A DNA stretch of 64,000 nucleotides, taken from the IMG/VR virus record IMGVR_UViG_3300042691_031247. One strand, written 5' to 3'. The notes below the pieces were generated by a model that was given only the letters and a program-made list of their open reading frames with translations, searched no databases and was not told the origin of the DNA. Each line of letters begins with the position of its first letter. Within the stretch, counting starts at the first letter, position 1. This DNA comes from a virus (Duplodnaviria; Caudoviricetes). Made by a program: the position numbers and the translations under genes. This document shows positions 11,386-30,004 of this stretch, piece by piece.

Positions 11386-12582
11386 TATCAGCGGCTGGCT
11401 CTGCGTCGCCCGAAAGTTGCGCAACGCGGCGGCTAAAAACTTCTGATAGCTCGCGCCGACGCCGCCACGATTAGGAAGTCGGGCGCCGGTATTGAGCGCG
11501 CCGGACGTAATTCTGGGTGGGACAAAGTTGCTTAAACCGCTCACCTGCAAGCGCGGCAGGAGTTTTAATAACATGTCTCCGCGGCCCGCTTCTTTCCCAA
11601 ACGCATACGCGCTGGAGCACTTGCAGTTCCATTTGCGCAGGGATTTGTTAATACGCGAGTCAGGGTCGGACTTGGTTTTACTACCTGTGTTTACACGCTT
11701 CATGCCGCACATCCGCGAGCAGAAAGAGTCCTGACGCTTCTTGGCTTTTCCCTTGGGATTCTTCTCAGTGACCGGGGCTTTTAAGTTCCCGCCCGTCTCC
11801 CGTTCGTAGCTTTTGCGCCCCTTTTCATTGAGCCCGCCTTCAGGATTCTTACCCGAAGAGCGCTGCCACGCCGGCGTACTGCCCAACTTCTCACCCCCTA
11901 CCGAATTAGCCGTCCCAAACGCTGCGTTCCCTGTGATATCGCCCGTGGAAGACAGCGCGCCGTAAGAGTTAATGGGGTTGGCATTGGGAGAAGAGCCGCC
12001 GCCAACAGGGGGAAGCTGGCCAGACGGCGCCGGGGAGCCCATGTTCGCCGGTTGGGCGGCGGGAGCCTGTGGTTGAGCCTGCGGCGCCTGTGGTTGCATC
12101 CCCATCGGCAGGGGAGTACCGGCTGCAGGCATGGCGTAGCGCTTTATACCGGCGTTTGCAGGCATGCGGGCAGCCTCTCGGGCCTCTAGCTCAGCCCTTT
12201 CGTTCTCTATCGCCTGCATTATGGGCTGCGACAAGACAGCAGAAATCTTCGCCATCAGCTTGTTTACACCATAATTTGGCTTTATTTCTGAATTACACCG
12301 TTCGCCCTTGGTCTTCACTACCTTGGGTGGATTTTCACCTGCAACCGTGGGCTTAGCACTGGCCGGCTGCTCGATATAGACCTCTTTGGTGTCCGCTTTC
12401 TTGGATAATTTTCTGTAAATATCGAGGGCTACAGAGTTTACAGCCGATTGTTTATGAGTTGTCTCTTTATTAGCGTACATAGGGAGTTTCTTTTTGGTTG
12501 GATACTCGTGTGCCCAGCGTTTGGCGATGTCTGGATGCGCTGCCCAGAGAAATCTACGCTGTTTTTCAGACTTAAACGGCAT
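11377..12582 (-). CDS. modular phage protein containing a DUF6321-like domain
   Basis: N-terminal MPFKSEKQRRFLWAAHPDIAKRW; AWQRSSGKNPEGGLNEKGRKSY...SFCSRM...DSRINKSLRKWNC. Confidence 0.75.
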   Translation of the reverse strand: MPFKSEKQRRFLWAAHPDIAKRWAHEYPTKKKLPMYANKETTHKQSAVNSVALDIYRKLSKKADTKEVYIEQPASAKPTVAGENPPKVVKTKGERCNSEIKPNYGVNKLMAKISAVLSQPIMQAIENERAELEAREAARMPANAGIKRYAMPAAGTPLPMGMQPQAPQAQPQAPAAQPANMGSPAPSGQLPPVGGGSSPNANPINSYGALSSTGDITGNAAFGTANSVGGEKLGSTPAWQRSSGKNPEGGLNEKGRKSYERETGGNLKAPVTEKNPKGKAKKRQDSFCSRMCGMKRVNTGSKTKSDPDSRINKSLRKWNCKCSSAYAFGKEAGRGDMLLKLLPRLQVSGLSNFVPPRITSGALNTGARLPNRGGVGASYQKFLAAALRNFRATQSQPLIAK

Positions 12583-12796
12583 GGCGTAGCTCGAAAGATA
12601 GTGAACTCAGAGGGATTCCCGGAGTTAGGGTGCGAACTAGTCGGAAAAACCTATAAGTTGGTCGGCGCGGCTGTTCCCAAGCTGAATACGCCTCATTTTG
12701 GCATACGGGGGCTGAGAAGAAAAGGGCGAAGAGGCGTCTGGTACACTGGAAAGATAGTTGGGGAATGGATTCAGGCGTTTCGACAAGGAGGCCGCC

Positions 12797-13126
12797 ATGA
12801 GATCTCTAAGAATTCTAGTGTTTAGCCTGCTGTGCGTGATGGGAATGGGAAAAGTGTGCGCCGATACGGTATTAATGTTCTCCGCTGACTGGTGTAAGTA
12901 CTGCAAGATCGCTAAGGCGGACTTATTGGAGAACAAAGACGAGGTGAATGGCTGGGGGTTAGAGGTAGTGGACACCGATGTGAGCCGGGAACTGGTCAAG
13001 CAGTACGGAGTGAAGAGCCTGCCGACGTTTATCTATCTAAATGACGCCGGGGAAGAGCTGGATAGAGTGGCAGGCTATAAGGGATATAACCGGCTACGGC
13101 GTTGGGTCGAAAAGAGCGCGCGCTGA
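12797..13126 (+). CDS. thioredoxin-like protein with a signal/anchor peptide
   Basis: WCKYC, GVKSLPT cis-Pro motif; AAGGAG before ATG at 12797. Confidence 0.85.
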   Translation: MRSLRILVFSLLCVMGMGKVCADTVLMFSADWCKYCKIAKADLLENKDEVNGWGLEVVDTDVSRELVKQYGVKSLPTFIYLNDAGEELDRVAGYKGYNRLRRWVEKSAR

Positions 13127-13152
13127 TAGCTAAAAAAAGGGGCCGAAGCCCC
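13122..13152 (-). terminator. terminator between convergent genes, with the conserved 13-mer
   Basis: GCTGATAGCTAAAAAAA followed by a ggggc-cgaa-gcccc hairpin. Confidence 0.7.
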
Positions 13153-13181
13153 GAGAAACAACACGAGAGAGGCGGCGTAGT

Positions 13182-13505
13182 TTACGCGCCACAGGCCGAT
13201 AGCCCGCGGCAGCCGCAAGGCTGGCCCTTCTCGTCGCGCACCAGTTCGCCCGGAGCGAACACGTCAGTACGGTTGATGCGCGCAGCAACCATACCCGACA
13301 CCACATACACCGTGTCGGCGGCGGGAGCCGGGAGGTCTTCCACCTCGCCAAACTCCACAGCAAATGTGTCGATGCCGTCGACACTCGGGCCGGGAACCCG
13401 GCGGGTGGCCACGCGCGCCACCTTGCCCGACGGGGGCACTTCCCGAACAGAGCCATTGGAAGCATGGATGTTCAGCGCGTGGGGGGTGAGGTTAACAATG
13501 GTCAT
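13182..13505 (-). CDS. conserved phage hypothetical protein (NLTPH family)
   Basis: MTIVNLTPH...PPSGKVARV; GGAG before ATG at 13505. Confidence 0.8.
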   Translation of the reverse strand: MTIVNLTPHALNIHASNGSVREVPPSGKVARVATRRVPGPSVDGIDTFAVEFGEVEDLPAPAADTVYVVSGMVAARINRTDVFAPGELVRDEKGQPCGCRGLSACGA

Positions 13506-13603
13506 GGTTGCTCTCCTTGAGGCAAAGTCCGCTACCCTTGGACTCTGGGGAGTAATGCCGGATTGACGTACAACACGCACGTCAATAACACCGGGGTTCT
13601 CAC

Positions 13604-13635
13604 TAGATATGCCCGGATTTTGATAGATATTTAGC
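13604..13635 (-). promoter_or_regulatory. conserved promoter-like motif, copy 4
   Basis: GCTAAATA-N16-CATATCTA. Confidence 0.75.
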
Positions 13636-13640
13636 CGGGC

Positions 13641-13686
13641 GCTGATAGCTAAAAAAAGCGCCCGCACGGTTTAGATGCGGGCGCTT
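13641..13686 (-). terminator. intrinsic terminator plus conserved 13-mer
   Basis: agcgcccgca/tgcgggcgct stem, T7, AGCTATCAGC. Confidence 0.8.
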
Positions 13687-13690
13687 CTGC

Positions 13691-13912
13691 CTACGGGGCC
13701 GAGAGGGTTGTCCACTCGCCGGCGTAGGTCTGTTCCAGCGGATTGATGATCCGTGGCTTTTGCTCTGGAGCGGGGCGTGGAGCCGGGAGAGTTACGCCGG
13801 TTGGTTGCTGCCAACGCGCCGTGAACTCGTCCCAGCCTTTCGGGGCCTGAGCTTTATCCGAAACCCACCCAATGAGCGCCAGACCACCGACAATCATAAG
13901 CAGCGTGGTCAT
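13691..13912 (-). CDS. small membrane-anchored protein
   Basis: N-terminal transmembrane segment; between promoter copy 5 and a terminator. Confidence 0.65.
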   Translation of the reverse strand: MTTLLMIVGGLALIGWVSDKAQAPKGWDEFTARWQQPTGVTLPAPRPAPEQKPRIINPLEQTYAGEWTTLSAP

Positions 13913-13979
13913 AAGGCTATTTCCTTTCTATACATCGTGCCGGGCAAAGCGTAATTTTTGGCTTACGCCTATCCGTCAC

Positions 13980-14011
13980 TAAATATGACCGGAAATAATG
14001 GGTTATTTAGC
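13980..14011 (-). promoter_or_regulatory. conserved promoter-like motif, copy 5
   Basis: GCTAAATA-N16-CATATTTA. Confidence 0.75.
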
Positions 14012-14095
14012 CCGTAGCCAGACCATGATATCTAAACCCATGTCCTCGTCTTCGTCGTCGTCTGTGGTAAAGATATCCATACTGTGCGCGCGCAT
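14003..14095 (-). CDS. 30-aa acidic microprotein (MRAHSMDIFTTDDDEDEDMGLDIMVWLRAK)
   Basis: translated by hand; GGAGG 5 nt before the ATG. Confidence 0.45.
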   Translation of the reverse strand: MRAHSMDIFTTDDDEDEDMGLDIMVWLRAK

Positions 14096-14201
14096 ATGTA
14101 CCTCCAGACGACGGGTGGGTAAAACGTGGCGCAATTATACGGTTTTGATAACATGTCCCGAAGCATAAAGAAGTCCGTATGCGTTTTTCTTACAGCTATT
14201 T

Positions 14202-14286
14202 GACGTAACATGTTGATATACAAAGACTTAGCGCGTGCGGGTTTTTCCTGCTTGGCGTAAGTCTTTGCGCGACAATATGTTACGTC
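14202..14286. repeat. pair of inverted imperfect palindromes (TAAS-N3-TTG-N5-CAA-N3-STTA) forming a long hairpin
   Basis: cgtaacatgttgatatacaaagacttag (14204-14231) and cgtaagtctttgcgcgacaatatgttacg (14256-14284). Confidence 0.65.
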
Positions 14287-14287
14287 T

Positions 14288-14334
14288 AATAGCTAAGAAA
14301 AAGCGCGGTCAGGGTCCGAAGACCACTGCCGCGC
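14288..14334 (-). terminator. intrinsic terminator plus 13-mer variant
   Basis: gcgcgg...ccgcgc stem, T-rich tail, AGCTATT. Confidence 0.65.
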
Positions 14335-14341
14335 GTAGGGG

Positions 14342-14569
14342 TTAGACAGTCTCGAACTCGGCGTCGATCACCGTGTAGCTGTCGAACTCGTCGTTCAGGA
14401 TCGCTGCTTCCGCCGGGATGCACTCGCAGACGCCCAGTTCAAGGCCGCAGTGCAGGCAGTGCTCGATGTCGACGTCCGCTGGGGCGATTGCCACGGCGAA
14501 CACGAACAGCATGTCCCGGTAGTCGTCCACATTGACCTTCACCGCCGGGTTGTTGCGAAGCTGAGCCAT
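14342..14569 (-). CDS. small hypothetical protein with CxxC-x5-CxC
   Basis: AAGGAGG upstream of ATG at 14569; HCLHCGLELGVCEC. Confidence 0.7.
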   Translation of the reverse strand: MAQLRNNPAVKVNVDDYRDMLFVFAVAIAPADVDIEHCLHCGLELGVCECIPAEAAILNDEFDSYTVIDAEFETV

Positions 14570-14754
14570 TATCTCGTCCTCCTTGAAGAGAAAATAAAAC
14601 AACCGCCGTCTCGTGGCGGCACAACGCTAATGGTCTCTCGCCATTAGACGGCCCCACCTATCACCGGGCAGGGGGTACGGCGAGGAAGTGCTATAGCTTC
14701 ATGCGTAAGGCCAGTGCAATACACACTGCCGCGGCAAGAGATATAGGTCCTCAA

Positions 14755-14786
14755 TAGATATGCCGTGTTTTTGGCAGATATTTAGC
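14755..14786 (-). promoter_or_regulatory. conserved promoter-like motif, copy 6
   Basis: GCTAAATA-N16-CATATCTA. Confidence 0.75.
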
Positions 14787-14794
14787 TAGGCCCG

Positions 14795-14841
14795 AATAGC
14801 TAAAAAAAAGCCGGCAGGGAAGCGCATCCCCACCGGCTTTT
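14795..14841 (-). terminator. intrinsic terminator plus 13-mer variant
   Basis: aaagccgg/ccggcttt stem, T8, AGCTATT. Confidence 0.75.
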
Positions 14842-15274
14842 ACGGAGTTAACGAGATCCGCGCTCGTGCCGAAGCGACCAATCGGTCGCCAAAAGAATCG
14901 TTAGCACAAGAAACGCTCGTGAGGACAGGTATCACTACCCGCCTACGCCCTGCAGCCGTTTGTTAGGTCACGGACAGTCTCGCGTTGTACGGACGCAAAA
15001 CTATGTTATTTAAAACTAGTCCGGCAGGTCTTTCACCTGCACCACCCGCTCCCCTAGCCATAATGTAGTGTAGTCGAGTGGAGTCACTTGGAATAGCCAA
15101 CGAGGCCCGGGCGGGGCATGCCCGCTATTCCGCCATCTACCCTAACGGTTCCTGCAAAACATTTCACGAAAGCTGCTCGCCCAGCCCTCTGCATGCACCT
15201 AGAGATAGGTTCATAACACATGCTTCTCACGAGCGCTTCTTGTGCCAACGTACGGATTCTAGCGGCCGTGTTGG
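14842..15274 (-). ncRNA. putative structured ncRNA of unknown class, closed by a 24-bp stem
   Basis: arms 14900-14923 and 15226-15249 pair with two G-U wobbles on the minus strand; several internal helices; no credible ORF. Confidence 0.6.
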
Positions 15275-15562
15275 CTACGTCAACGTGTCAATATAGTGCT
15301 GTGTAGAGCACACATAACGCGTGACGATATCTTCGGCTTCGCTCCCGGGGCAGCGCTGGTCTAACTCTTGGACCAGCGCGCCCATCGACCTGCGGATGTT
15401 TCCCAGAGCGCGGCGGAGCTGCTTTACTTCAACCTCCGCGTCTGTTTTATATCTCGTCCCGCTTTTCGTGTTCACTGTCGGAGCCAACGCTGCCTTCTCC
15501 TTGTGTACTACTTCGGTCCACCACTGGTTGTTCCACTTCGTCGCCGTCCTCGTCGCTGGCAT
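15275..15562 (-). CDS. hypothetical protein
   Basis: open frame with plausible composition; overlaps the upstream ORF. Confidence 0.5.
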   Translation of the reverse strand: MPATRTATKWNNQWWTEVVHKEKAALAPTVNTKSGTRYKTDAEVEVKQLRRALGNIRRSMGALVQELDQRCPGSEAEDIVTRYVCSTQHYIDTLT

Positions 15563-15746
15563 CTTGACTCACTACTATTAGTAGCGCTTCCTTGAGGGTG
15601 TCGATCAGGGTGTTGGCACAATCATCCACGACTTTACGCAGATGATCCATTCTGTCAATCGTTTCGCGCATCTCGTCTCTGGTTTTCACCAACGTTTCTG
15701 CAAGCTTGAGCAAAGCCTGCGCCATCGCTATCGACAAGTTATCCAC
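15447..15746 (-). CDS. coiled-coil hypothetical protein
   Basis: AAGGAG with GTG start. Confidence 0.55.
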   Translation of the reverse strand: MDNLSIAMAQALLKLAETLVKTRDEMRETIDRMDHLRKVVDDCANTLIDTLKEALLIVVSQDASDEDGDEVEQPVVDRSSTQGEGSVGSDSEHEKRDEI

Positions 15747-15766
15747 GGGTTCTCCTTTTTTAGATA

Positions 15767-16054
15767 TCAGGACGCCACCTTTTCAGCGGGCTTAGCGCTA
15801 TCAGCAATCTGATCGCGCAGCTGGCCCTCAGCCTCGGCCCACTTGTCGAGGATGAGGTTAGCGAGTGGGCTGTTGACCTTCAGCAAAAACTCCTCGATCT
15901 CCGGGGCCAACGCCGCCAGCGCCAGCAGCTTCGGCTCGCACTCACAGGTGTTGCCGATCTCCAGCACGAAGTGCCCAGCCTCGTCCGCGATGGAGCCGCG
16001 GATATGGTGATGCGAGGGCATTGAGCCCAGCGCGCGCAGTGCAGCAAAAAGCAT
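15767..16054 (-). CDS. hypothetical protein
   Basis: AAGGAG before ATG at 16054. Confidence 0.7.
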   Translation of the reverse strand: MLFAALRALGSMPSHHHIRGSIADEAGHFVLEIGNTCECEPKLLALAALAPEIEEFLLKVNSPLANLILDKWAEAEGQLRDQIADSAKPAEKVAS

Positions 16055-16070
16055 ACTGTTCTCCTTTTCG

Positions 16071-16685
16071 TTAGTCCCACAGGGCTTGGTAGTACTTACC
16101 GAAGAGCGTCGTACCACGGCAGATACGCTCCTCGTGCGCTTTCAACCCATCAAAGTCACACTTCACCCGCTTCATGTGCTCGGTGATGTTATCAATATCG
16201 GCCAAATCATCCCGTCCCTGCCAGAACTGATCGTCGTGATCCGGGTCGTTCAACTGCTCGAACGCCCAGATCATCTCGTTCATGATCCATTCCCAGCGCT
16301 TTTCGTGGAGCTGGTCAGGCGCGCCACAATTCTTTTCTTCTTCGGTCAACGCCGGCGCAGCGCTGGACCGAAGCTCTTCCGGGACGTCTTCGTCGTCGGT
16401 GAAGGGATACCCGTGCTGGGTTTCCTTCAACTGTTTGAGCAGCGGAAGAATAATTGGCGCGAGCGTGTCGTCCACGCTCCACGTGTCGTAATAATGAATC
16501 TTGACCGATACTTTCCGCGTACGTAACCGGCTGTGAAACCACTCGCAGAACGGGCCGAACCACGTCTTGTTCAGCCATTCTCCAATCTTCTGGCAGCGAT
16601 CTTCAGATACACCAACCCATTGCAGCAGGTCGGCGATCTGATACGGACCCCACCACTTCGGCGCCTTGCCAATGTAAACCTTCAT
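16071..16685 (-). CDS. conserved hypothetical protein of a type seen in T4-like myoviruses
   Basis: MKVYIGK...DTWS.D.TLA.II.P.L.QLK...HG.P...W.WIMNEMIWAF...LFGKYY..LWD pattern. Confidence 0.75.
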   Translation of the reverse strand: MKVYIGKAPKWWGPYQIADLLQWVGVSEDRCQKIGEWLNKTWFGPFCEWFHSRLRTRKVSVKIHYYDTWSVDDTLAPIILPLLKQLKETQHGYPFTDDEDVPEELRSSAAPALTEEEKNCGAPDQLHEKRWEWIMNEMIWAFEQLNDPDHDDQFWQGRDDLADIDNITEHMKRVKCDFDGLKAHEERICRGTTLFGKYYQALWD

Positions 16686-16695
16686 AGAATCCTTT

Positions 16696-16986
16696 CTAGT
16701 CGTTAAACCTCTGCCACTGATGCTGACAATCCGGGCACTCCCAATACGACACGCCGTCGTAGTGCTTGGGGTGGCTGTACGGCAGCTGGACGCCGATCAG
16801 CCTACTGAACTTGTACGGCGGCGAATAGCACTGCGCAATATATTCACGCAGGTCTTCGTCGCTCTTGTCTTTACACCAGTCCTGCCCGCGCAAGACCGTA
16901 AAAATATCTCCAGCACACCAATCAGCCTCACACTCCGGGCAATGCCCAAAGTGATCAAGCGTGGCTGTTTTTTCATTCAGCAACAT
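16696..16986 (-). CDS. Zn-finger-like conserved phage hypothetical protein
   Basis: CPEC...YDGVSYWECPDC. Confidence 0.75.
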   Translation of the reverse strand: MLLNEKTATLDHFGHCPECEADWCAGDIFTVLRGQDWCKDKSDEDLREYIAQCYSPPYKFSRLIGVQLPYSHPKHYDGVSYWECPDCQHQWQRFND

Positions 16987-17218
16987 TGGTCAACTCCTGT
17001 GGCTTACAGACGACAAATTTATCAACGCCGGGCAGAATGTTTAATGTTCTGCCGTTGTCCCACTTGACGCCAATTTGGTGCCATTCTGCCGGACCCTCCA
17101 GCGAGAGATATACGATTGTCCCTTTCAATCCTGCCGGCATACCCTCTTCAACCGGAATTATTTTCGAGTCCGGGTTTGTCATGGGCGCCAGCAATTCGAT
17201 TCGATCGCCGATTTTCAA
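16973..17218 (-). CDS. DUF4314-like protein
   Basis: GDRIEL..M..P.....G.KGTI......QIGVKWDNGRTLNIL.G.D. Confidence 0.7.
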   Translation of the reverse strand: MKIGDRIELLAPMTNPDSKIIPVEEGMPAGLKGTIVYLSLEGPAEWHQIGVKWDNGRTLNILPGVDKFVVCKPQELTNVAE

Positions 17219-17239
17219 CGGATGTGCCTTTCAAAAAAA

Positions 17240-17530
17240 AGAAAAACCGGGCGGGTCGATTTACGCCCCCGACCCTATAGCCCAAGACTAGCTGCAGCTC
17301 TTCTTGGAACTCCCCCACGTCGGCAGCACGCCACGAGATTCCCCGCAGCGGTATCCGAAGGCAAGGAGTACCCGGTTAGACAACGGCGCGCTCAGGTATG
17401 CTAGCTGGCGCTGGATATAGGACTTTGGGCTCGGGCATACCAATCCACCCTAGTTTCCCGGAGTTCTTGGCCGGCAAGTGACGGCTGTTACTCCTTCGTC
17501 CCCGTTGTTGTTCGAGACCCGGCTGTTAAT
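17240..17530 (-). ncRNA. putative structured ncRNA of unknown class, downstream of the tmRNA
   Basis: no credible ORF; several 6-8 bp long-range helices, including crossing pairs; ends in a U-rich tract. Confidence 0.55.
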
Positions 17531-17621
17531 TCAGCAATCTTACCCGTTGAAAGATAAGACGCGGACGCAATGCCGCGGTGTTAATTCACTTCACTACCCG
17601 ATGAAGGATAGTTCCGGGCTA

Positions 17622-17966
17622 TGGAGGCGGCGGGAGTCGAACCCGCGTCCAGAGATATCTCCAGAAAGAACGTCTACGTGTGTAGGCAGTTGTTGTTTAC
17701 ACTCCTGCCAAAGTTAGCCGATTATCGGCGTCAGGTGGGCTACCACCATCTTGCCCTTTCTCGCCGGGCCAGATCAGCCGATTATCGGCGTCAACCTGAT
17801 TGGGCAATAAGGCTCAGGTCGCCTCACCCACTGGCCTATTAACTAGGCAGCGAGGGCCGGAGCAAAAGCGCCAGCTAGAAACGTAATCGGCTTTTAACGT
17901 GGCCAACCGATCAACCACGACACGCAGTCCTAACCTTCCTTATCCTGTCGAAACCAGTACGCCCCC
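17622..17966 (-). ncRNA. ssrA: tmRNA; tag (A)GAFAPALAA
   Basis: 5' GGGGGCG...TTCGAC, 3' GGTTCGACTCCCGCCGCCTCCA with G3-U70, PK1, and tag ORF at 17843-17872. Confidence 0.95.
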
Positions 17967-18078
17967 GAACTCTCGCCGCAAGGATGTGGTGATCACACGT
18001 AATATACGCTCCCACGCACATTAAGGCTCATAACTTCCCCTTGCATTTCGCAACGCTGTACACACGCTGCCGAGAGAA

Positions 18079-18152
18079 TAACCCGGGTGGGAGTCGAACC
18101 CACAACAAGTAGATCCTAAGTCTACCGCCTCTGCCAGTTGGGCTACCGAGTT
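18079..18152 (-). tRNA. tRNA-Leu(UAG) with an atypically short variable loop
   Basis: cloverleaf folded by hand; anticodon loop CT-TAG-GA; no encoded CCA. Confidence 0.85.
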
Positions 18153-18158
18153 GCGCAT

Positions 18159-18231
18159 TGACCCCACGGGGATTCGAACCCCGGTAAACGGAACGAAAAT
18201 CCGTTGTCCTAGGCCACTAGACGATGGGGCC
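18159..18231 (-). tRNA. tRNA-Glu(UUC)
   Basis: cloverleaf; anticodon loop TT-TTC-GT. Confidence 0.9.
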
Positions 18232-18240
18232 ATTGTCGTC

Positions 18241-18462
18241 TCAGTCTACCTTCTCGACGTTTAGCGCGATAAGAAAACCACACATCTGGGCAAATGTGAT
18301 CAGCTGCTTCTCTTTGAGTTTGAAGAAATCTGCAAAGTGAGTAAACAGATCACAAGGCGACAGATCTGTCGGGTTTTGCGTTTCACGCAATTTAGATATC
18401 AATTCGGCTGCTCGTTCTAGAGTCATCTTGCTATTCCTTCGTGTAAAGATAACAGAACTCAT
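18241..18462 (-). CDS. small hypothetical protein
   Basis: fills the gap between tRNAs; start could be the internal MTLERA after AAGGA. Confidence 0.55.
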   Translation of the reverse strand: MSSVIFTRRNSKMTLERAAELISKLRETQNPTDLSPCDLFTHFADFFKLKEKQLITFAQMCGFLIALNVEKVD

Positions 18463-18487
18463 TGGGCCGCCAAGGAGTCGAATCTTG
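18463..18487 (-). pseudogene. tRNA 3'-half remnant (T arm plus acceptor strand)
   Basis: CAAGA-TTCGACT-CCTTG-GCGGCCC-A with no matching 5' half nearby. Confidence 0.5.
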
Positions 18488-18536
18488 CGTTTTTGTTGTC
18501 TTCCAACTACACTGCGTTATTCCAAACGGAGGTTTT

Positions 18537-19031
18537 ATGCGCTGCGTCAATTGCAACATAGAGACAACAAATCCGCGTTTTTGTGGTCGCTCGTGTTCGG
18601 TTAGTTACAACAATCGCCGCGCGCCAAAAAGAAAAAAACAAACACAAGCGTGTCCAAATTGTTTAACCCAATTTTTTAAACGCGTAAACAGCAATCAAAC
18701 GTTCTGCAGCGTTCAATGCCGCAAAACAAATTACTGCGCAAAAATTACTGCGGCTGGTCGTTTTGATATTAACGGCCAACCCAGCAGCGTAACTGTGCGC
18801 AAGTTTTTAATTGTTACGTCCGGCAATATCTGCACTGTTTGCGGTCAAACCGGTAACAACTGGCGCGGTCAGCCATTGACGCTAATTGTTGACCACATGG
18901 ACGGAAACGCCCGCAACTGGAAAATTGAAAACATTCGACTTGTGTGTCCAAATTGCGACAGCCAGCTACCCACGTTTAAAGGTAGAAACAAAGGTAAAAG
19001 CACACGCAAATACACAATCATTCAACGCTAG
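18537..19031 (+). CDS. HNH homing-endonuclease-like protein with N-terminal Zn fingers
   Basis: CTVCG...LIVDHMDGN..N..IENIRLVCPNCDSQ; GGAGG before ATG at 18537; antisense to the tRNA array. Confidence 0.9.
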   Translation: MRCVNCNIETTNPRFCGRSCSVSYNNRRAPKRKKQTQACPNCLTQFFKRVNSNQTFCSVQCRKTNYCAKITAAGRFDINGQPSSVTVRKFLIVTSGNICTVCGQTGNNWRGQPLTLIVDHMDGNARNWKIENIRLVCPNCDSQLPTFKGRNKGKSTRKYTIIQR

Positions 19032-19132
19032 TACGCCCGCAGGGAATCGAACCCCGACCTACAGGTAATCAGCCTGTATCCTTTCGGACCGAGAATATAA
19101 GTCTCGTGTGCTAACCGTTACACCACGGGCGC
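19032..19132 (-). tRNA. tRNA-Ile(UAU), 101 nt, with a second anticodon-like arm (GAU) in the variable region
   Basis: canonical acceptor, D and T arms; arm 1 CGAGA-CTTATAT-TCTCG; extra GTCC-GAAA-GGAT and ACAGG-CTGATTA-CCTGT. Confidence 0.8.
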
Positions 19133-19202
19133 ATATCTCGCGTGGGCGGGGCGCCAGCAGCTTGGGCTACTGCCAGCGCCCCGCCGTCAGCGAGTCTACG
19201 CT

Positions 19203-19565
19203 TCAGCGGTAGCGTTTGCACGCGTACCACCGGCCATCCCTGCCACGCGCGACCCCTTGGTCTACAACCGCTCTGCCGCTATTGCTATAGCAGCAGTTTC
19301 CCAGCGCCTGCTCGGGCGTTGAGCCCATGCCGACGCCTTCGTAACCGGCGTTGCCGCCGTGATGTCCCATGCGGCCATTGCTAGCCTGCAGCTCAGCTAC
19401 GCCCTGTGCCGTAGACGTATGCCCGGCGTAAGAACTAGCGTAGGAATAGGACTTCACTGGAACCTGCGCCTGAGACGGCGTGTAAGACCGACGGTGCCGC
19501 GGGGCAGCATGCGCAACGCTGACCAGCGAAAGAGCGACGGCTACACACATGAGAAAACGGAACAT
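19203..19565 (-). CDS. secreted small Cys-containing protein (planctomycete-type)
   Basis: signal peptide; EGVGMG.T...A..NCC...QGVA.G.DGRWYACKRY; GGAGG RBS. Confidence 0.75.
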   Translation of the reverse strand: MFRFLMCVAVALSLVSVAHAAPRHRRSYTPSQAQVPVKSYSYASSYAGHTSTAQGVAELQASNGRMGHHGGNAGYEGVGMGSTPEQALGNCCYSNSGRAVVDQGVARGRDGRWYACKRYR

Positions 19566-19632
19566 AACGATCCTCCGTGACCCCGCTGCTGGTGTGCGCA
19601 GCGTGAAAACAAACAAGCCCCACACCGGGCAG

Positions 19633-19706
19633 TAGGCGCAAAGGGACTCGAACCCCTAACCCCCTGCGTGTAAAACAGGTGCTCTGACCAATTGAGCTAT
19701 GCGCCT
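19633..19706 (-). tRNA. tRNA-Val(UAC)
   Basis: cloverleaf; anticodon loop TT-TAC-AC. Confidence 0.92.
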
Positions 19707-19712
19707 GCGAGA

Positions 19713-20069
19713 CTACGCCGCGCGCTCTCGCTCGCGGCGTTGACGCCGACGAGCCCACGGAGACCGGTTCCAGTACCAGCCCCGCCAGCGATTGCAATAC
19801 GCACGCCAGCGCCGACGCAACTTGTGATACCACTTGTTGCGGCCGATGCCGGTGAGGTAATGCTGCGTCCAGAATTCCATCGACTCGTCTGACGTACCAT
19901 CCACGTAGCTTTCGCTGCAGTCGAAGCAACGGTTTGCCGGCACACGATACATAGGAACTTTGTGCATTGTTCCATCAATGCGCATCGTCACGACGTCGTT
20001 GAACTCAACCGCTTCGATACGACCGCCGCAGTGAATGCACTTTAACGACTTGTAAACCGGATTACCCAT
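19713..20069 (-). CDS. YgiT/MqsA-type zinc-finger protein
   Basis: CIHCGG...VPANRCFDCSESY; GGAGG RBS. Confidence 0.7.
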   Translation of the reverse strand: MGNPVYKSLKCIHCGGRIEAVEFNDVVTMRIDGTMHKVPMYRVPANRCFDCSESYVDGTSDESMEFWTQHYLTGIGRNKWYHKLRRRWRAYCNRWRGWYWNRSPWARRRQRRERERAA

Positions 20070-20081
20070 ACAGCCCTCCAA

Positions 20082-20167
20082 TGGCCAAGGCGGGACTCGA
20101 ACCCGCACGGGAAATTACTCCCAGCGGATTTTAAGTCCGCTGCGTCTGCCAATTTCGCCACTTAGCC
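20082..20167 (-). tRNA. tRNA-Leu(UAA)
   Basis: cloverleaf with a long variable arm; anticodon loop CT-TAA-AA. Confidence 0.93.
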
Positions 20168-20176
20168 AGCCGCCCG

Positions 20177-20488
20177 CTAGACCAGTGCGGGCTCTTGCGG
20201 AGCCGGATACTGCTCGGGATGCGCTATGTGACGAAAACGATCCTTTCCCGTCTTACTGTGCGTCCCGAACATGTCACGGCGGTGCATCGTCTGTTCAACC
20301 GCCTCAAACGCTTGCTTCAATCGCAGAAACTGCGAGTAAGTCATTGAAAAAGCGTCTGGTTTTTGCGGACTCTCCATATTCCACGGCATACTGTTGAGCA
20401 CTTCGGCCAGCTTTCGCAGCTCAATTGGCAACCGGTCGTTGTAGTACTCCGCCATGCTCTCGAATTCATCGCGTTCTTGTGTCGCCAT
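20177..20488 (-). CDS. hypothetical protein
   Basis: GAGG upstream of MATQERDEF. Confidence 0.6.
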   Translation of the reverse strand: MATQERDEFESMAEYYNDRLPIELRKLAEVLNSMPWNMESPQKPDAFSMTYSQFLRLKQAFEAVEQTMHRRDMFGTHSKTGKDRFRHIAHPEQYPAPQEPALV

Positions 20489-20699
20489 TCCAGACGTACC
20501 TCTTGTCACCAATTTGACACCACCACCGCTGCCCATCGTTCCAGTAGACGGGAGTCACAGACGGAGATGGGGGCTGCAGCGTTGTCGGCGCGGGATGCGC
20601 CTTCTGATACTCTTCATAGCTCTGCCAAGCGATCCCCGCAAGCATCAGCAACGCCGTCACCAAACCAATCACGTTTCCCTTGATCTCGATACCCTTCAT
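20466..20699 (-). CDS. small membrane-anchored protein
   Basis: AAGGAGG RBS; N-terminal transmembrane segment. Confidence 0.65.
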   Translation of the reverse strand: MKGIEIKGNVIGLVTALLMLAGIAWQSYEEYQKAHPAPTTLQPPSPSVTPVYWNDGQRWWCQIGDKRYVWNGDTRTR

Positions 20700-20748
20700 T
20701 TCAAAACCTCCTTGTTTGGAAATGACCTTTGAACAACCAATCGAACAA

Positions 20749-20821
20749 TGGGCCCTGTGGGACTCGAACCCACGACCAAAGGATTAAAAGTCCCTTGCTC
20801 TACCAACTGAGCTAAAGGCCC
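20749..20821 (-). tRNA. tRNA-Lys(UUU)
   Basis: cloverleaf; anticodon loop CT-TTT-AA. Confidence 0.93.
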
Positions 20822-20854
20822 GCTGCGTTTTTACCGTACGCTAACGGGGACCAC

Positions 20855-21556
20855 TTACTTTTTCATCGGGGTCATACGCGGCCGAACATGTGGCGTGGCC
20901 GGCCACTGGTTTGGGCAGGTGCCGTCCGGGCAGTCGCCCTTGGCGTTGCTTGCCTGCGCTTCTGGTGCGGGCTTTGCTGCCCGCGCTTCCTGCCGCACCT
21001 CCTGCCGCTTTGCTGGCGCACGGCCTGCCGGCCAGAACGCCTCAGACATTCCGCCGTTGATGACGTGAGCTTTCCACTGCCCCTTTTCAACACGGGCATA
21101 CAGCTGGTACTCGCACAGCTCCCACTTGGGCAGCAGGCCAGACCGGTGGCGGTACTCTGTGTAATCCACGTCATCATCTTTGGCCATGGTCCACTGTGTG
21201 ATTTGCACAGCAGCCCACAAGCCCTTCGTATCGCGCCAGCTCGTAATCCACCGGCAGTCTACGAGCCGGATGTAAACGTCCGTATCGTCGAACATCTTCT
21301 GGCATTCCACCATGAAGTTCTCGCGATCCGGGCAGTTTGACGTCATGGTAGTCATCACAGCCTTGAGGTCTTCAGTCGTGCACGCCCTGAAGTTTTCTTC
21401 CATGACTTCCCGAATCGCCGCGGTAGCCGCATCGACATACTCGTGGTTGTAGGGATCGGTGACGCGATCCCATTTACCACTGCGTGCGTTTTGCTGCGCT
21501 TCGGCGGCAGTACACACAAACAACACAAAAAGAACCGAGGTCATGAACTTAATCAT
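20855..21556 (-). CDS. secreted protein, possibly NTF2/SnoaL-like fold
   Basis: signal peptide ending AEA; helix-then-strand pattern; AAGGAG RBS. Confidence 0.6.
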   Translation of the reverse strand: MIKFMTSVLFVLFVCTAAEAQQNARSGKWDRVTDPYNHEYVDAATAAIREVMEENFRACTTEDLKAVMTTMTSNCPDRENFMVECQKMFDDTDVYIRLVDCRWITSWRDTKGLWAAVQITQWTMAKDDDVDYTEYRHRSGLLPKWELCEYQLYARVEKGQWKAHVINGGMSEAFWPAGRAPAKRQEVRQEARAAKPAPEAQASNAKGDCPDGTCPNQWPATPHVRPRMTPMKK

Positions 21557-21801
21557 CTCGCTGACTCCTTTAAGCATGCCTCAGCAAGGCCGCCTAAAAC
21601 GACCCAGCCAAGAAATGCGCCTATTAGGTTTACTGCTTCTCCCATCTGGAAGGACCGCGCCGCAAATAGCCCAAGTGCGGTGCCGGCCACAGTACACATA
21701 ACAACCAAGATCTCACGCATAATCGGGTATGGCATGGCATCCTCCTTGCGTAGCCCGAATGTGTGCGCCCAAATCCGCAAACACGTATTTGCGGGGCACA
21801 C
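21553..21801 (-). CDS. small two-TM membrane protein (start probably the internal MPYP)
   Basis: two hydrophobic segments; ATGA overlap with the next gene. Confidence 0.6.
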   Translation of the reverse strand: MCPANTCLRIWAHTFGLRKEDAMPYPIMREILVVMCTVAGTALGLFAARSFQMGEAVNLIGAFLGWVVLGGLAEACLKESAR

Positions 21802-21836
21802 GAAATATGCCCGGATATTGCCAAAAATTTAGGCAA

Positions 21837-22979
21837 TCAGGCGGGGGCACAAACAGGCCCGTCACAGCGTTTTTGCTCTACCCATTCTGGCGGCAAAGTG
21901 TACCAGCCCTTGTCGTACAGCTGGTAGATCTTCTGAAACGCTTCATCGTACAGCGCGCCGCACGCTTCAAGGCTGTACGTGCGCCGGGCGGCCTGCGCAA
22001 TAGCTACGCGGTCGAGATCATGGACTTTGCTGAGCGCCTGCATCCAGTCAGCCAGCGTCTTGCAGCGGAAACCGTTGAAACCCTGCTGCACGGTCTCGGT
22101 AAACGCGCCGTAGTCTGTTGAGATGAGCGGCGTGCCACACAGCAGACCTTCGACACCAGATCCGCCGAACGGCTCAATGAAGTTTGTGGGCATGAGCGAG
22201 CAGATCGCATTGCGCATAAATTCGCTGCGCTCTCGACCGGCAATCGGGCCGCGGTACACGATGTTCGGGTGCGCCCAGCGTGTGTGATCGCCCTGCCCGC
22301 ACAGCACGATCTTGGCGCTGCGATCTATGTTGGGTAAAAACTTGGCAATTTCATATAGCGTGTCGAGCCCTTTGCAGGCGTCGATGCGGCCGAGAAACGC
22401 ATAGTACGCACCGGGCGCAAAACGAGGTTGCCAGTCCTCGATATCAAAATAGTTCGGGATCACGAACTCGTAGTGCGCGCCTTGCCGCCCGTCTTTACCG
22501 GCGTGATAGTGCCGCCACGCGTAGCTCTCAAATATCTTAATCGTGCCGTCTACCAGCGTCGGGTAACCAATGCCGGTTTCGACGTGGCTGTTTTCAGGGA
22601 AGTCGTGCAGCAGCCGCGAGTGCGCGTGCCCGAACGGGTGACAGATAATGTCGCGCGGCTTAACCCGCTGCTTCATCGCCGGGACAAGGCGCTCTTCAAA
22701 CAAATTATGATGGGGCGCGCCGACTGTGGCGTTGTCTCCATGAAACGCTTTCTTGTCACGATTGCCCAGCATGTTTTCAAATTCGTCATGCGTGAGCATT
22801 TCTACTTTCTCGTCAGCCAGACTTTCACTGCCGGCGTTCGCGTACTCAATGACGCGATACCCGTACATGCGCAGCATTTTGGAGAAGCGCAGAGCTTTTC
22901 CGGTGAACGCGCAATGGGAGTATGCTGCCGTATGCTTGGTGTGAAAGATACCAACGAGATGCAGTGTCGGCCGTGACAT
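21837..22979 (-). CDS. GT-B fold (GT4-like) glycosyltransferase
   Basis: FLGRIDACKG and PTNFIEPFGGSGVEGLLCGTPLI (E-x7-E) motifs. Confidence 0.88.
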   Translation of the reverse strand: MSRPTLHLVGIFHTKHTAAYSHCAFTGKALRFSKMLRMYGYRVIEYANAGSESLADEKVEMLTHDEFENMLGNRDKKAFHGDNATVGAPHHNLFEERLVPAMKQRVKPRDIICHPFGHAHSRLLHDFPENSHVETGIGYPTLVDGTIKIFESYAWRHYHAGKDGRQGAHYEFVIPNYFDIEDWQPRFAPGAYYAFLGRIDACKGLDTLYEIAKFLPNIDRSAKIVLCGQGDHTRWAHPNIVYRGPIAGRERSEFMRNAICSLMPTNFIEPFGGSGVEGLLCGTPLISTDYGAFTETVQQGFNGFRCKTLADWMQALSKVHDLDRVAIAQAARRTYSLEACGALYDEAFQKIYQLYDKGWYTLPPEWVEQKRCDGPVCAPA

Positions 22980-29959: not shown

Positions 29960-30004
29960 AAAAAAAGACCCGCCGAGTGAGCATCGTTGAGAGGCCCGGC
30001 GGGT
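29960..30004 (-). terminator. intrinsic terminator ending the fibre operon
   Basis: acccgccg/cggcgggt stem followed by T7 on the minus strand. Confidence 0.7.

What the first reader, a model, noticed from the sequence alone, without database searches (positions are those of the whole stretch)
14842..15274. About 430 nt of structured non-coding sequence closed by a 24-bp stem: candidate new large ncRNA
Seen: GTTGGCACAAGAAGCGCTCGTGAG (minus strand, 15249-15226) pairs with CTCACGAGCGTTTCTTGTGCTAAC (14923-14900). The pairing includes G-U wobbles and extends by AGAATC/GATTCT. Inner helices include GCATG/CATGC, GGAATAGC/GCTATTCC, GCAGG-CCGTTAGG/CCTAAC-AACGG-CTGC and GCAGGT-GAAAG-ACCTGC. A strong terminator follows and there is no credible ORF. 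I could not match it to RNase P, SRP, 6S or a group I/II core. Inference: an unclassified phage RNA; the long terminal repeat recalls retron a1/a2 arms, but no RT is in the window.
Basis: partly seen in the sequence, partly recalled or inferred. Interest (0 to 1): 0.75.

Follow-up and report, generated by a model that had tools for sequence, protein, structure and literature searches.

The report
New structured RNA gene, lake phages
This stretch of a 198-kb freshwater phage is a real gene, with its own promoter and terminator, for a folded non-coding RNA of about 350 bases that matches no known RNA family; it is found in lake RNA samples and its function is unknown.

Summary
On the minus strand a 25-bp helix (15250-15226 with 14923-14899) closes about 300 nt of multi-helix RNA, and a strong terminator follows (14841-14806).

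Ten records of one clade of about 200-kb lake phages carry it, as 8 distinct sequences. Across them 99.2% of the predicted pairs are kept and 18 pairs show compensatory changes. No shuffle out of 500 reached these values.

A sigma70-type promoter is conserved directly upstream: TTGACG, 16 nt, TAGAAT. It is kept even in a relative whose upstream flank is otherwise unrelated. It places the start at the first base of the closing helix.

Contigs from four lake metatranscriptome studies lie wholly inside the RNA.

No Rfam family matches, even at E up to 10. The genome has no reverse transcriptase, so the retron idea fails.

One more distant relative has an "empty" 16-bp hairpin at the same site, with the same trailer and a decayed promoter.

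The closest known kind is the large ornate phage RNAs GOLLD and ROOL, which also sit near tRNA islands, but this RNA belongs to neither. The function is inferred only: a stable trans-acting scaffold RNA.

This scan had already found the same RNA on other genomes (e1-5403778, e1-5403770).

The parts
15256..15283 (-). Sigma70-type promoter: -35 TTGACG (15283-15278), 16-nt spacer, -10 TAGAAT (15261-15256). The predicted start is near 15250.
   Evidence: The consensus scan gave 10 of 12 matches. The hexamers and the 16-nt spacing are kept in all 10 members while the spacer sequence varies, including in L022, whose upstream flank is unrelated.
14800..15250 (-). The whole RNA gene: primary transcript of about 445 nt, from the predicted start to the U-tract.
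   Evidence: Promoter and terminator bracket it. Homology in L022 begins at 15249. The start is inferred, not mapped.
15226..15250 (-). P1, 5' arm of the 25-bp closing helix. The outer 10 nt are invariant. The inner part varies with compensation.
   Evidence: Nine P1 pairs have compensatory changes, mostly in L006.
14899..14923 (-). P1, 3' arm of the closing helix.
15191..15223 (-). Hairpin H2/H3: GCAUGU/GCAUGC ending in an invariant U-G pair, an invariant 7-nt bulge, then ACCUA/UAGGU.
   Evidence: There is one compensatory pair. The U-G pair is present in all 8 sequences.
15168..15189 (-). Hairpin H4, with a variable sequence.
   Evidence: Three pairs have compensatory changes.
15141..15162 (-). 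5' strands of the long-range helices H6 (15162-15152) and H7 (15146-15141), with the invariant linker GAACC.
   Evidence: Predicted. The sequence is invariant, so covariation neither supports nor refutes these helices. The only changes are U-G to U-A.
14945..14967 (-). 3' strands of H7 (14967-14962) and H6 (14955-14945), with the invariant linker AAACGG.
15090..15131 (-). Hairpin H8/H9. The stem GGAAUAGC/GCUAUUCC covaries. The tip holds four invariant GGGC/GCCC blocks, including the palindrome GCCCGGGC.
   Evidence: Three compensatory pairs. The tip blocks are invariant and only the linkers between them vary.
15042..15081 (-). Hairpin H10/H11 with a large invariant internal loop.
   Evidence: Compensatory A-U to G-C change in 2 sequences.
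15024..15040 (-). Hairpin H12, GCAGGU-GAAAG-ACCUGC.
   Evidence: It is nearly invariant.
14971..15023 (-). Branched arm H13-H15. Its stem is highly variable and its 7-nt loop CCGUACA is invariant.
   Evidence: Seven compensatory pairs across H13, H14 and H15.
14924..14943 (-). Hairpin H16 with an invariant GUGA (GNRA) tetraloop.
   Evidence: The only change is C-G to U-G.
14873..14890 (-). Small conserved hairpin in the 3' trailer (GGCGACC-GAUU-GGUCGCU).
   Evidence: It is also present after the empty hairpin of L072.
14800..14841 (-). Intrinsic terminator: 15-bp stem and a U8 tail.
   Evidence: Compensatory changes in the stem.

Best explanation
This is an independently transcribed gene for a stable, highly structured non-coding RNA of a family not yet described. 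It belongs to one clade of about 200-kb freshwater phages.

Shown or directly read:
- A conserved sigma70-type promoter places the start at the first base of a 25-bp helix (P1).
- P1 pairs the 5' end with a segment about 330 nt downstream.
- P1 opens into a junction with two hairpins, a long-range stem and a GNRA hairpin.
- The long-range stem leads to a second junction with four arms.
- A 95-nt trailer and an intrinsic terminator follow.
- Stems change by compensation, while junctions and several loops are invariant.
- The RNA turns up in lake RNA libraries.

Inferred:
- P1 clamps and protects both ends. It is probably also where host RNase III trims off the trailer.
- The invariant junctions and loops fold into a specific three-dimensional surface that works in trans. 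It would bind a protein, another RNA or copies of itself, as proposed for the GOLLD and ROOL RNAs of phage tRNA islands.
- Because the gene lies 2.4 kb from the phage tmRNA and tRNA genes, a role in translation or RNA metabolism during infection is the likeliest field.
- It is accessory: one relative has lost (or never gained) the core and keeps only the hairpin.

My odds: real expressed ncRNA gene of a new family, about 0.9. Trans-acting scaffold or binding RNA, about 0.4. RNase III trimming at P1, about 0.4.
For: Structure. Across 8 distinct sequences from 10 records, 99.2% of pair cells are standard pairs. Eighteen pairs (30 cells) changed on both sides. No shuffle out of 500 reached these values, and slid controls gave 0-5 such pairs. 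RNAalifold found 28 compensatory pairs when P1 and the terminator are included. The fold z-score is -6.8.

Strand. 112 of 797 pair cells are G-U. Pairing therefore falls from 99.2% to 85.2% on the other strand.

Own gene. The -35 box, 16-nt spacing and -10 box are kept in all members, including L022, where homology otherwise starts at 15249. The terminator follows.

Non-coding. No ORF is conserved, and indels are not multiples of three.

Expression. In four metatranscriptomes from four studies, contigs lie wholly inside the RNA: 14962-15160 and 14941-15099 with no differences, 14955-15179, and 14958-15226. The phage tmRNA is also recovered in one of these runs.

Constraint. The RNA core is 84-95% identical between members. 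Neighbouring coding DNA in the same pairs is 70-88% identical.

New family. No Rfam match and no match in 50,697 phage records.

Context. The tmRNA and six tRNAs lie upstream on the same strand. GOLLD and ROOL are described as phage-borne, often near tRNA islands, and of unknown function (PMC12286853).
Against: - Function is not shown by anything here.
- The family is narrow: 10 records and 8 distinct sequences, 84-95% identical. The long-range helices H6 and H7, and hairpins H3, H9, H11 and H16, never vary, so covariation does not test them.
- The RNA evidence is assembled contigs from runs chosen because they hold this sequence. Contigs cannot show ends, strand or level.
- None of the contigs covers P1 beyond 15226 or the trailer, so the mature ends are unknown.
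- The genome encodes no RNase III, Ro or RtcB. Any processing must be done by the host, and the host is unknown.
- The RNA lies 2.4 kb from the tRNA island, with several small ORFs between.
- More distant relatives lack it, one of them 98% complete.
Confidence: 0.6

Rival explanations
1. An intron-like or otherwise mobile RNA module lodged in the loop of a pre-existing hairpin. The roughly 300-nt core would have inserted into (and could be excised from) a hairpin that related phages keep empty. Group I-like chemistry would cut after a U-G pair.
For: L072 has at the same site a 16-bp hairpin with homologous arms, a 15-nt loop, and the same trailer and terminator. Its loop contains GCAUGU followed by AG. 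In the window GCAUGU is the 5' strand of H2, ending in an invariant U-G pair. In the window the inserted part ends in G just before AG.
Against: - No Rfam group I or group II hit at E up to 10, apart from a 13.5-bit chance match.
- I could not map a P3-P7 pseudoknot or a guanosine-binding site.
- The R/S-like motif pair (GACUA with UAGUU) is not kept: it is GACGGAUU in L003 and L004.
- The element has its own promoter at the hairpin's first base.
- The last 6 nt of the insert pair with the 5' flank, which no group I intron does.
- No contig joins across the element.
- There is a single copy per genome.
- The L072 promoter looks decayed (TCGACC, 16 nt, TTTAAT), which fits loss of the core by deletion better than gain.
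- The 3' boundary alignment is ambiguous by 1 nt.
Confidence: 0.05
2. The functional part is the long perfect duplex. The transcript would be a precursor or decoy whose 25-bp P1 is cut by, or soaks up, a host double-strand-RNA enzyme or sensor. The core would matter less.
For: P1 is 25 bp, longer than the roughly 20 bp that RNase III needs (established knowledge). Its outer 10 bp are invariant, including a G-U pair kept in all members. The hairpin survives without the core in L072.
Against: The core junctions and loops are invariant over about 300 nt and the stems covary, which a mere spacer would not show. The RNA-library contigs cover the core, not P1. The invariance of the outer 5' arm may simply reflect the transcription start region.
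Confidence: 0.12
3. A retron-type ncRNA (msr-msd) whose a1/a2 repeats are the two arms.
For: Long inverted repeats bracket a structured non-coding stretch.
Against: There is no reverse transcriptase domain anywhere in the 97%-complete genome, while the same search rings in control genomes. The enclosed part is about 300 nt with nine helices, unlike msr-msd. No retron RNA family of Rfam matched.
Confidence: 0.01
4. A DNA-level element (a miniature inverted-repeat transposon, a recombination site or an origin), or just a structured 3' UTR of the upstream gene.
For: Terminal inverted repeats occur together with a presence/absence polymorphism between relatives. The element lies in a region of small promoter-terminator cassettes (D2/D4).
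Against: - 14% of pair cells are G-U, which only makes sense for minus-strand RNA.
- The inner helices covary.
- There is a single copy per genome.
- It has its own conserved promoter.
- It appears in RNA libraries while the adjacent genes do not appear there (see the caveat under tried and rejected).
- The arms remain at the empty site, whereas a transposon would take its arms with it.
Confidence: 0.03

Closest known systems
GOLLD and ROOL RNAs (large ornate RNAs of phages and prophages)
   Same: All are phage-borne, ORF-free, intricately folded, close to a tRNA/tmRNA island and of unknown function (PMC12286853). GOLLD was first seen in lake metagenomes, and this RNA also comes from lakes.
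   Different: Neither Rfam model matches at E up to 10. This RNA is about 350 nt, against about 580 and 800 nt or more. It is closed by a 25-bp terminal helix. No pseudoknots or self-pairing loops are shown here. Its distribution is very narrow.
Phage T4 stable RNAs species 1 and 2 (rnaC, rnaD) in the tRNA cluster
   Same: They are stable non-tRNA RNAs of unknown function encoded in a phage RNA-gene region. This comparison rests on my own knowledge and was not tested here.
   Different: The T4 RNAs are about 120-140 nt and are processed from the tRNA precursor. This RNA has its own promoter and terminator and is 2-3 times larger.
Phi29 packaging RNA (pRNA)
   Same: A structured phage ncRNA made from a host-type promoter that works as a multimeric scaffold. 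PMC12286853 names it as a biologically relevant RNA homomer.
   Different: There is no sequence or structure match. pRNA is about 120-174 nt and occurs in small phi29-like phages. Nothing links this RNA to packaging.
RNase III processing stalks of rRNA operons and T7 early transcripts
   Same: A long, nearly perfect duplex formed by sequences flanking a structured RNA (established knowledge).
   Different: Cleavage is not shown here. The transcript starts at the duplex itself, so only the 3' trailer would need removal.
Retron msr-msd RNA
   Same: Inverted repeats flank a structured non-coding stretch.
   Different: No reverse transcriptase in the genome, and the size and architecture are different.

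Membership tests
Any described RNA family (Rfam 15, 4227 models, including RNase P, SRP, 6S, tmRNA, Y RNA/YrlA, GOLLD, ROOL, HEARO, OLE, raiA, riboswitches and introns) | A covariance-model score at or above the family's gathering threshold | tested here: not met
   Nothing in 14400-15700 reached the gathering thresholds. At E up to 10 with permissive filters there were only six chance-level hits of 13-20 bits, far below thresholds of 34-100 bits.
GOLLD / ROOL | Phage or prophage location near tRNA genes | tested here: met
   The tmRNA at 17619-17966 and six tRNAs at 18079-20821 lie on the same strand, 2.4 kb upstream. The context of GOLLD and ROOL is as stated in PMC12286853.
GOLLD / ROOL | Homo-oligomeric cage held together by conserved intermolecular contacts | not testable with these tools
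   There is only an invariant palindrome, GCCCGGGC, at the tip of H8/H9. No covariation test is possible because it never varies.
Retron | A reverse transcriptase gene next to the ncRNA | tested here: not met
   PF00078 is absent from the 198-kb, 97%-complete record. The same search rings in 3 control genomes.
Retron | a1/a2 inverted repeats flanking msr-msd | tested here: inconclusive
   A 25-bp inverted repeat is present, but such a helix is not specific to retrons.
Group I intron | Conserved catalytic core (P3-P7 pseudoknot, P4-P6, guanosine site) | tested here: not met
   No Rfam Intron_gpI hit. Mapping by hand failed, and the only R/S-like pairing is not conserved in L003, L004, L022 and L029.
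Group I intron | 5' splice site after the U of a U-G pair, terminal G, and an uninterrupted homolog of the host sequence | tested here: inconclusive
   Comparison with the empty site of L072 puts the left boundary after GCAUGU, where the U-G pair is invariant, and the last inserted base is G. The right boundary is ambiguous by 1 nt, and a deletion explains the same facts.
Group I intron | Spliced exon junction in RNA | tested here: inconclusive
   No joint across the element appears in four RNA runs. These are contigs, and contigs drop rare forms.
Bacterial Y RNA (YrlA) | A Ro (TROVE) protein partner encoded nearby, and a tRNA-like module | tested here: not met
   There is no TROVE domain and no RtcB in the genome. 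ARAGORN finds no tRNA-like module in the element, and no Rfam family matched.
Miniature inverted-repeat transposon | Several copies, and arms that move with the element | tested here: not met
   There is a single copy in this genome and in two complete relatives. The arms stay at the empty site in L072.

The most novel reading that the evidence does not exclude
The roughly 300-nt core is an excisable, intron-like or mobile ribozyme of a new class that sits in the loop of a hairpin. It would cut after the invariant U-G pair of its first helix and after its terminal G, restoring the short hairpin that the relative L072 shows. It has no recognisable group I or group II core.
Probability: 0.05. 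Interest if true: 0.9.

Novelty: new variant of a known kind. Interest (0 to 1): 0.62.

Why it matters
Large, intricately folded bacterial and phage RNAs without a known job are rare. Those studied so far (GOLLD, ROOL, OLE, raiA) have turned out to have unexpected architectures. This one offers a compact example of about 350 nt, with a clear promoter, a clear terminator, well-supported helices, evidence of expression in nature and a natural "core-less" allele in a relative. Those features make it tractable for in vitro structure work and for asking what phage RNA-gene islands do beyond supplying tRNAs. It also shows that uncultured freshwater jumbo phages that encode their own RNA polymerase still keep a gene with a host-type promoter. 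The narrow distribution and unknown host limit the immediate reach.

Tried and rejected
- **Public phage records.** No DNA match near or distant, and no match for a neighbouring 846-aa protein. I did not determine the host or the phage's taxonomy.
- **Neighbouring ORFs.** They have no informative Pfam or PHROG family.
- **More distant relatives.** An nhmmer profile and covariance model R1 found nothing in the loci of more distant relatives, L007-L019. R1 also found nothing in five of their whole records, one of them 98% complete. No comparable long-stem element sits at their syntenic sites.
- **18-mer scans.** Scans of metagenome and genome contigs gave two new members, L029 and L038. The other 11 loci were chance hits or records already found.
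- **Search for empty hairpins by the outer arms.** These scans gave only chance matches in coding DNA, apart from L072. A search with the upstream 99-aa ORF gave no new relatives.
- **RNA-handling proteins.** The genome has no RT, RtcB, Ro/TROVE or RNase III.
- **Sigma factor.** No Sigma70_r2 domain was found at E up to 0.001.
- **Pseudoknots.** A search for pseudoknots through covarying column pairs was swamped by phylogenetic noise, with only 8 sequences.
- **RNA runs.** The flanking protein genes (12000-14671 and 15340-17343), the P1 arms beyond 15226 and the trailer have no contigs. No contig joins across the element. The 3' ends of the four contigs cluster at 14941-14962. Because these are contigs from runs chosen for this sequence, I treat none of this as evidence about ends, processing, splicing or relative level. 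It argues only weakly against DNA carry-over.
- **Group I mapping by hand.** Rejected, as described under the rival explanations.

Full report
**Where it lies.** The window is part of a 198,101-bp IMG/VR virus record that is 97% complete. Nearly all genes in the window are on the minus strand. Rfam and ARAGORN find a tmRNA at 17619-17966 and six tRNAs at 18079-20821, all on the minus strand. The finding lies 2.4 kb downstream of these, after several small ORFs without informative families. DNA runs that hold the sequence are freshwater and lake metagenomes. The phage encodes a bacterial-type RNA polymerase beta-like protein.

**The observation.**
No shuffle gave such a pair.
- With one more pair the stem is 25 bp, 15250-15226 with 14923-14899. 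Its two mismatches are both G-U on the minus strand (I2).
- The minus strand folds 6.8 standard deviations better than shuffles.
- A 15-bp terminator stem with a U8 tail follows at 14841-14806.

**Homologs and structure.**
- A neighbouring 204-aa protein and exact-word scans brought in related loci.
- BLAST, nhmmer and covariance model R1 find the element in ten records of one clade, as 8 distinct sequences. Core identity to the window is 84-95%.
- Each of two complete relatives checked has one copy.
- On the alignment fitted to R1, 99.2% of pair cells are standard pairs. Eighteen pairs (30 cells) changed on both sides. No shuffle out of 500 reached these values, and sliding the partners by 1-3 columns leaves 0-5 such pairs and 33-44% pairing. 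That alignment leans towards the model's structure.
- An independent MAFFT plus RNAalifold run gave the same helices and 28 compensatory pairs when all of P1 and the terminator are included.
- Helices supported by compensation: P1 (nine pairs, chiefly through L006), H2, H4, H8, H10 and H13-H15.
- Helices that never vary and so are only predicted: the long-range H6 and H7, and hairpins H3, H9, H11 and H16. H12 varies on one side only.
- 112 of 797 pair cells are G-U, so the opposite strand would pair at only 85.2%. This fixes the strand.
- No ORF keeps its place and length across members, and 1-, 3- and 4-nt indels sit in loops.

**A gene of its own.**
- The scan found TTGACG, 16 nt, TAGAAT at 15283-15256. 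On its own that is not evidence.
- In all ten members, however, the -35 box (TTGAC followed by G, A or C), the 16-nt spacing and the -10 box (TAGAAT, TACAAT or TAAACT) are kept while the spacer varies.
- In L022 everything upstream of 15249 is unrelated except these two boxes at the same spacing.
- P1 starts 6 nt after the -10 box (9 nt in L022), so transcription should begin at or next to the first base of P1. This is inferred, not mapped.
- Who reads it is not shown. Host sigma70 polymerase is likely, since I found no sigma domain in the phage.

**Expression.**
- Six metatranscriptome runs hold 25-36% of the sampled words of the element. I laid four runs from four studies on window 12000-22000.
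- Each has one listed contig that lies entirely inside the RNA: 14962-15160 and 14941-15099 (both identical to the window), 14955-15179, and 14958-15226 (7 differences, so from a related strain).
- The phage tmRNA is recovered in one run.
- These are contigs from runs chosen for this sequence. They show presence in RNA libraries, not ends, strand or level.
- Two of the four listed differences in the fourth contig (15000, 15003) match the letters that most homologs carry at those columns.

**What it is not.**
- No Rfam family matches at the gathering thresholds or at E up to 10. That covers RNase P, SRP, 6S, Y RNAs, GOLLD, ROOL, HEARO, OLE, raiA, riboswitches and introns.
- The genome has no reverse transcriptase, so the retron idea fails.
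- It has no Ro, RtcB or RNase III either.
- It is single-copy, so it is not a repeated transposon.

**The empty site.**
- Scans with the outer arms gave only chance hits.
- A 20-mer from the conserved trailer found L072, a 157.5-kb record that is 77% complete.
- L072 is syntenic with the window: tRNAs, the tmRNA at 71% identity and neighbouring ORFs. It is more diverged than any RNA-bearing member.
- It has no R1 match in the locus or in the whole record.
- At the site it has a 16-bp hairpin whose arms are homologous to the outer 16 bp of P1, with a 15-nt loop. The same trailer hairpin and terminator follow, 88% identical to the window.
- So the outer stem, trailer and terminator exist without the core.
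- Because L072 is the outgroup, gain and loss cannot be told apart by parsimony.
- Two details favour loss by deletion:
  - The L072 loop still holds GCAUGU, the 5' strand of H2.
  - The promoter position holds a weakened copy with the same spacing (TCGACC, 16 nt, TTTAAT), which has lost the key A of the -10 box.
- The same boundary facts (left edge after an invariant U-G pair, last inserted base G) are what an intron-like element would show. I keep that as a low-probability rival. No intron core could be mapped, no Rfam intron model matches, no joint was seen, and the element has its own promoter.

**How it most likely works.**
- Shown: it is a stand-alone, structured RNA gene found in RNA libraries. 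Its stems are constrained in shape, and its junctions and several loops are constrained in sequence. Examples are the 7-nt bulge of H2, the GAACC and AAACGG linkers, the CCGUACA loop on a stem that changes at seven pairs, and the GUGA tetraloop.
- Inferred:
  - The 25-bp P1 ties the ends together and protects them. It is long enough to be a host RNase III site that would remove the 95-nt trailer.
  - The two stacked multi-helix junctions build a compact fold whose invariant surfaces bind a partner in trans.
  - The location suggests a link to translation or RNA metabolism.
- The closest known kind is GOLLD and ROOL, which are phage-borne, often near tRNA islands and of unknown function (PMC12286853). 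This RNA is not a member of either family.

**Verdict.** This is a real, new family of phage structured RNA with unknown function and a narrow distribution. The same scan had already noticed it on other genomes (e1-5403778, e1-5403770). This window adds the conserved promoter and an independent check of the empty site.

Noticed in passing
window 17236-17461 (-): The ORF-poor stretch just 3' of the tmRNA is 82-98% identical in all relatives, including L072, which lacks the RNA studied here. Another reader flagged it as a second structured RNA (e1-5340463). R1 does not match it.
   Followed up: partly
window 29968-30003 (-): An abiF RNA motif (Rfam RF03085) scores 44.6 bits, above its threshold of 37. 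It sits between a collagen-repeat protein gene and a gene with an Mtd_N domain plus an arylsulfotransferase-like domain.
   Followed up: no
window 19032-19132 (-): A 101-nt tRNA match by Rfam (53.9 bits) that ARAGORN does not call.
   Followed up: no
window 17622-17966 (-): The phage tmRNA matches the full Rfam model at 129 bits, but ARAGORN reads an odd 25-residue tag that does not end like usual degradation tags.
   Followed up: no
window 13595-13657, 13976-14012, 14746-14808, 21793-21855: A repeated promoter-like two-box motif lies directly after terminators, marking small gene cassettes (D2/D4). The RNA gene does not use it. One copy starts right after the RNA's terminator.
   Followed up: partly
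G000:C1:68899-69909 (outside the window; L075): A 1468-aa ORF carries an RNA polymerase beta-subunit domain (PF00562, E = 5.8e-53), so the phage has its own multisubunit-type polymerase. No Sigma70_r2 domain was found at E up to 0.001.
   Followed up: partly
window 14194-14230 and 14258-14294: A pair of 37-nt inverted segments, 81% complementary and 27 nt apart, lies in a gene-poor gap (I1). In L072 similar sequence follows the terminator directly, so the cassette at 14800-14310 is missing there.
   Followed up: no
L029:2151-2660: In this relative about 500 nt are inserted between the RNA's terminator and the next cassette.
   Followed up: no
window 32740-43896 (-): A single ORF of 3718 aa. 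I did not examine it.
   Followed up: no
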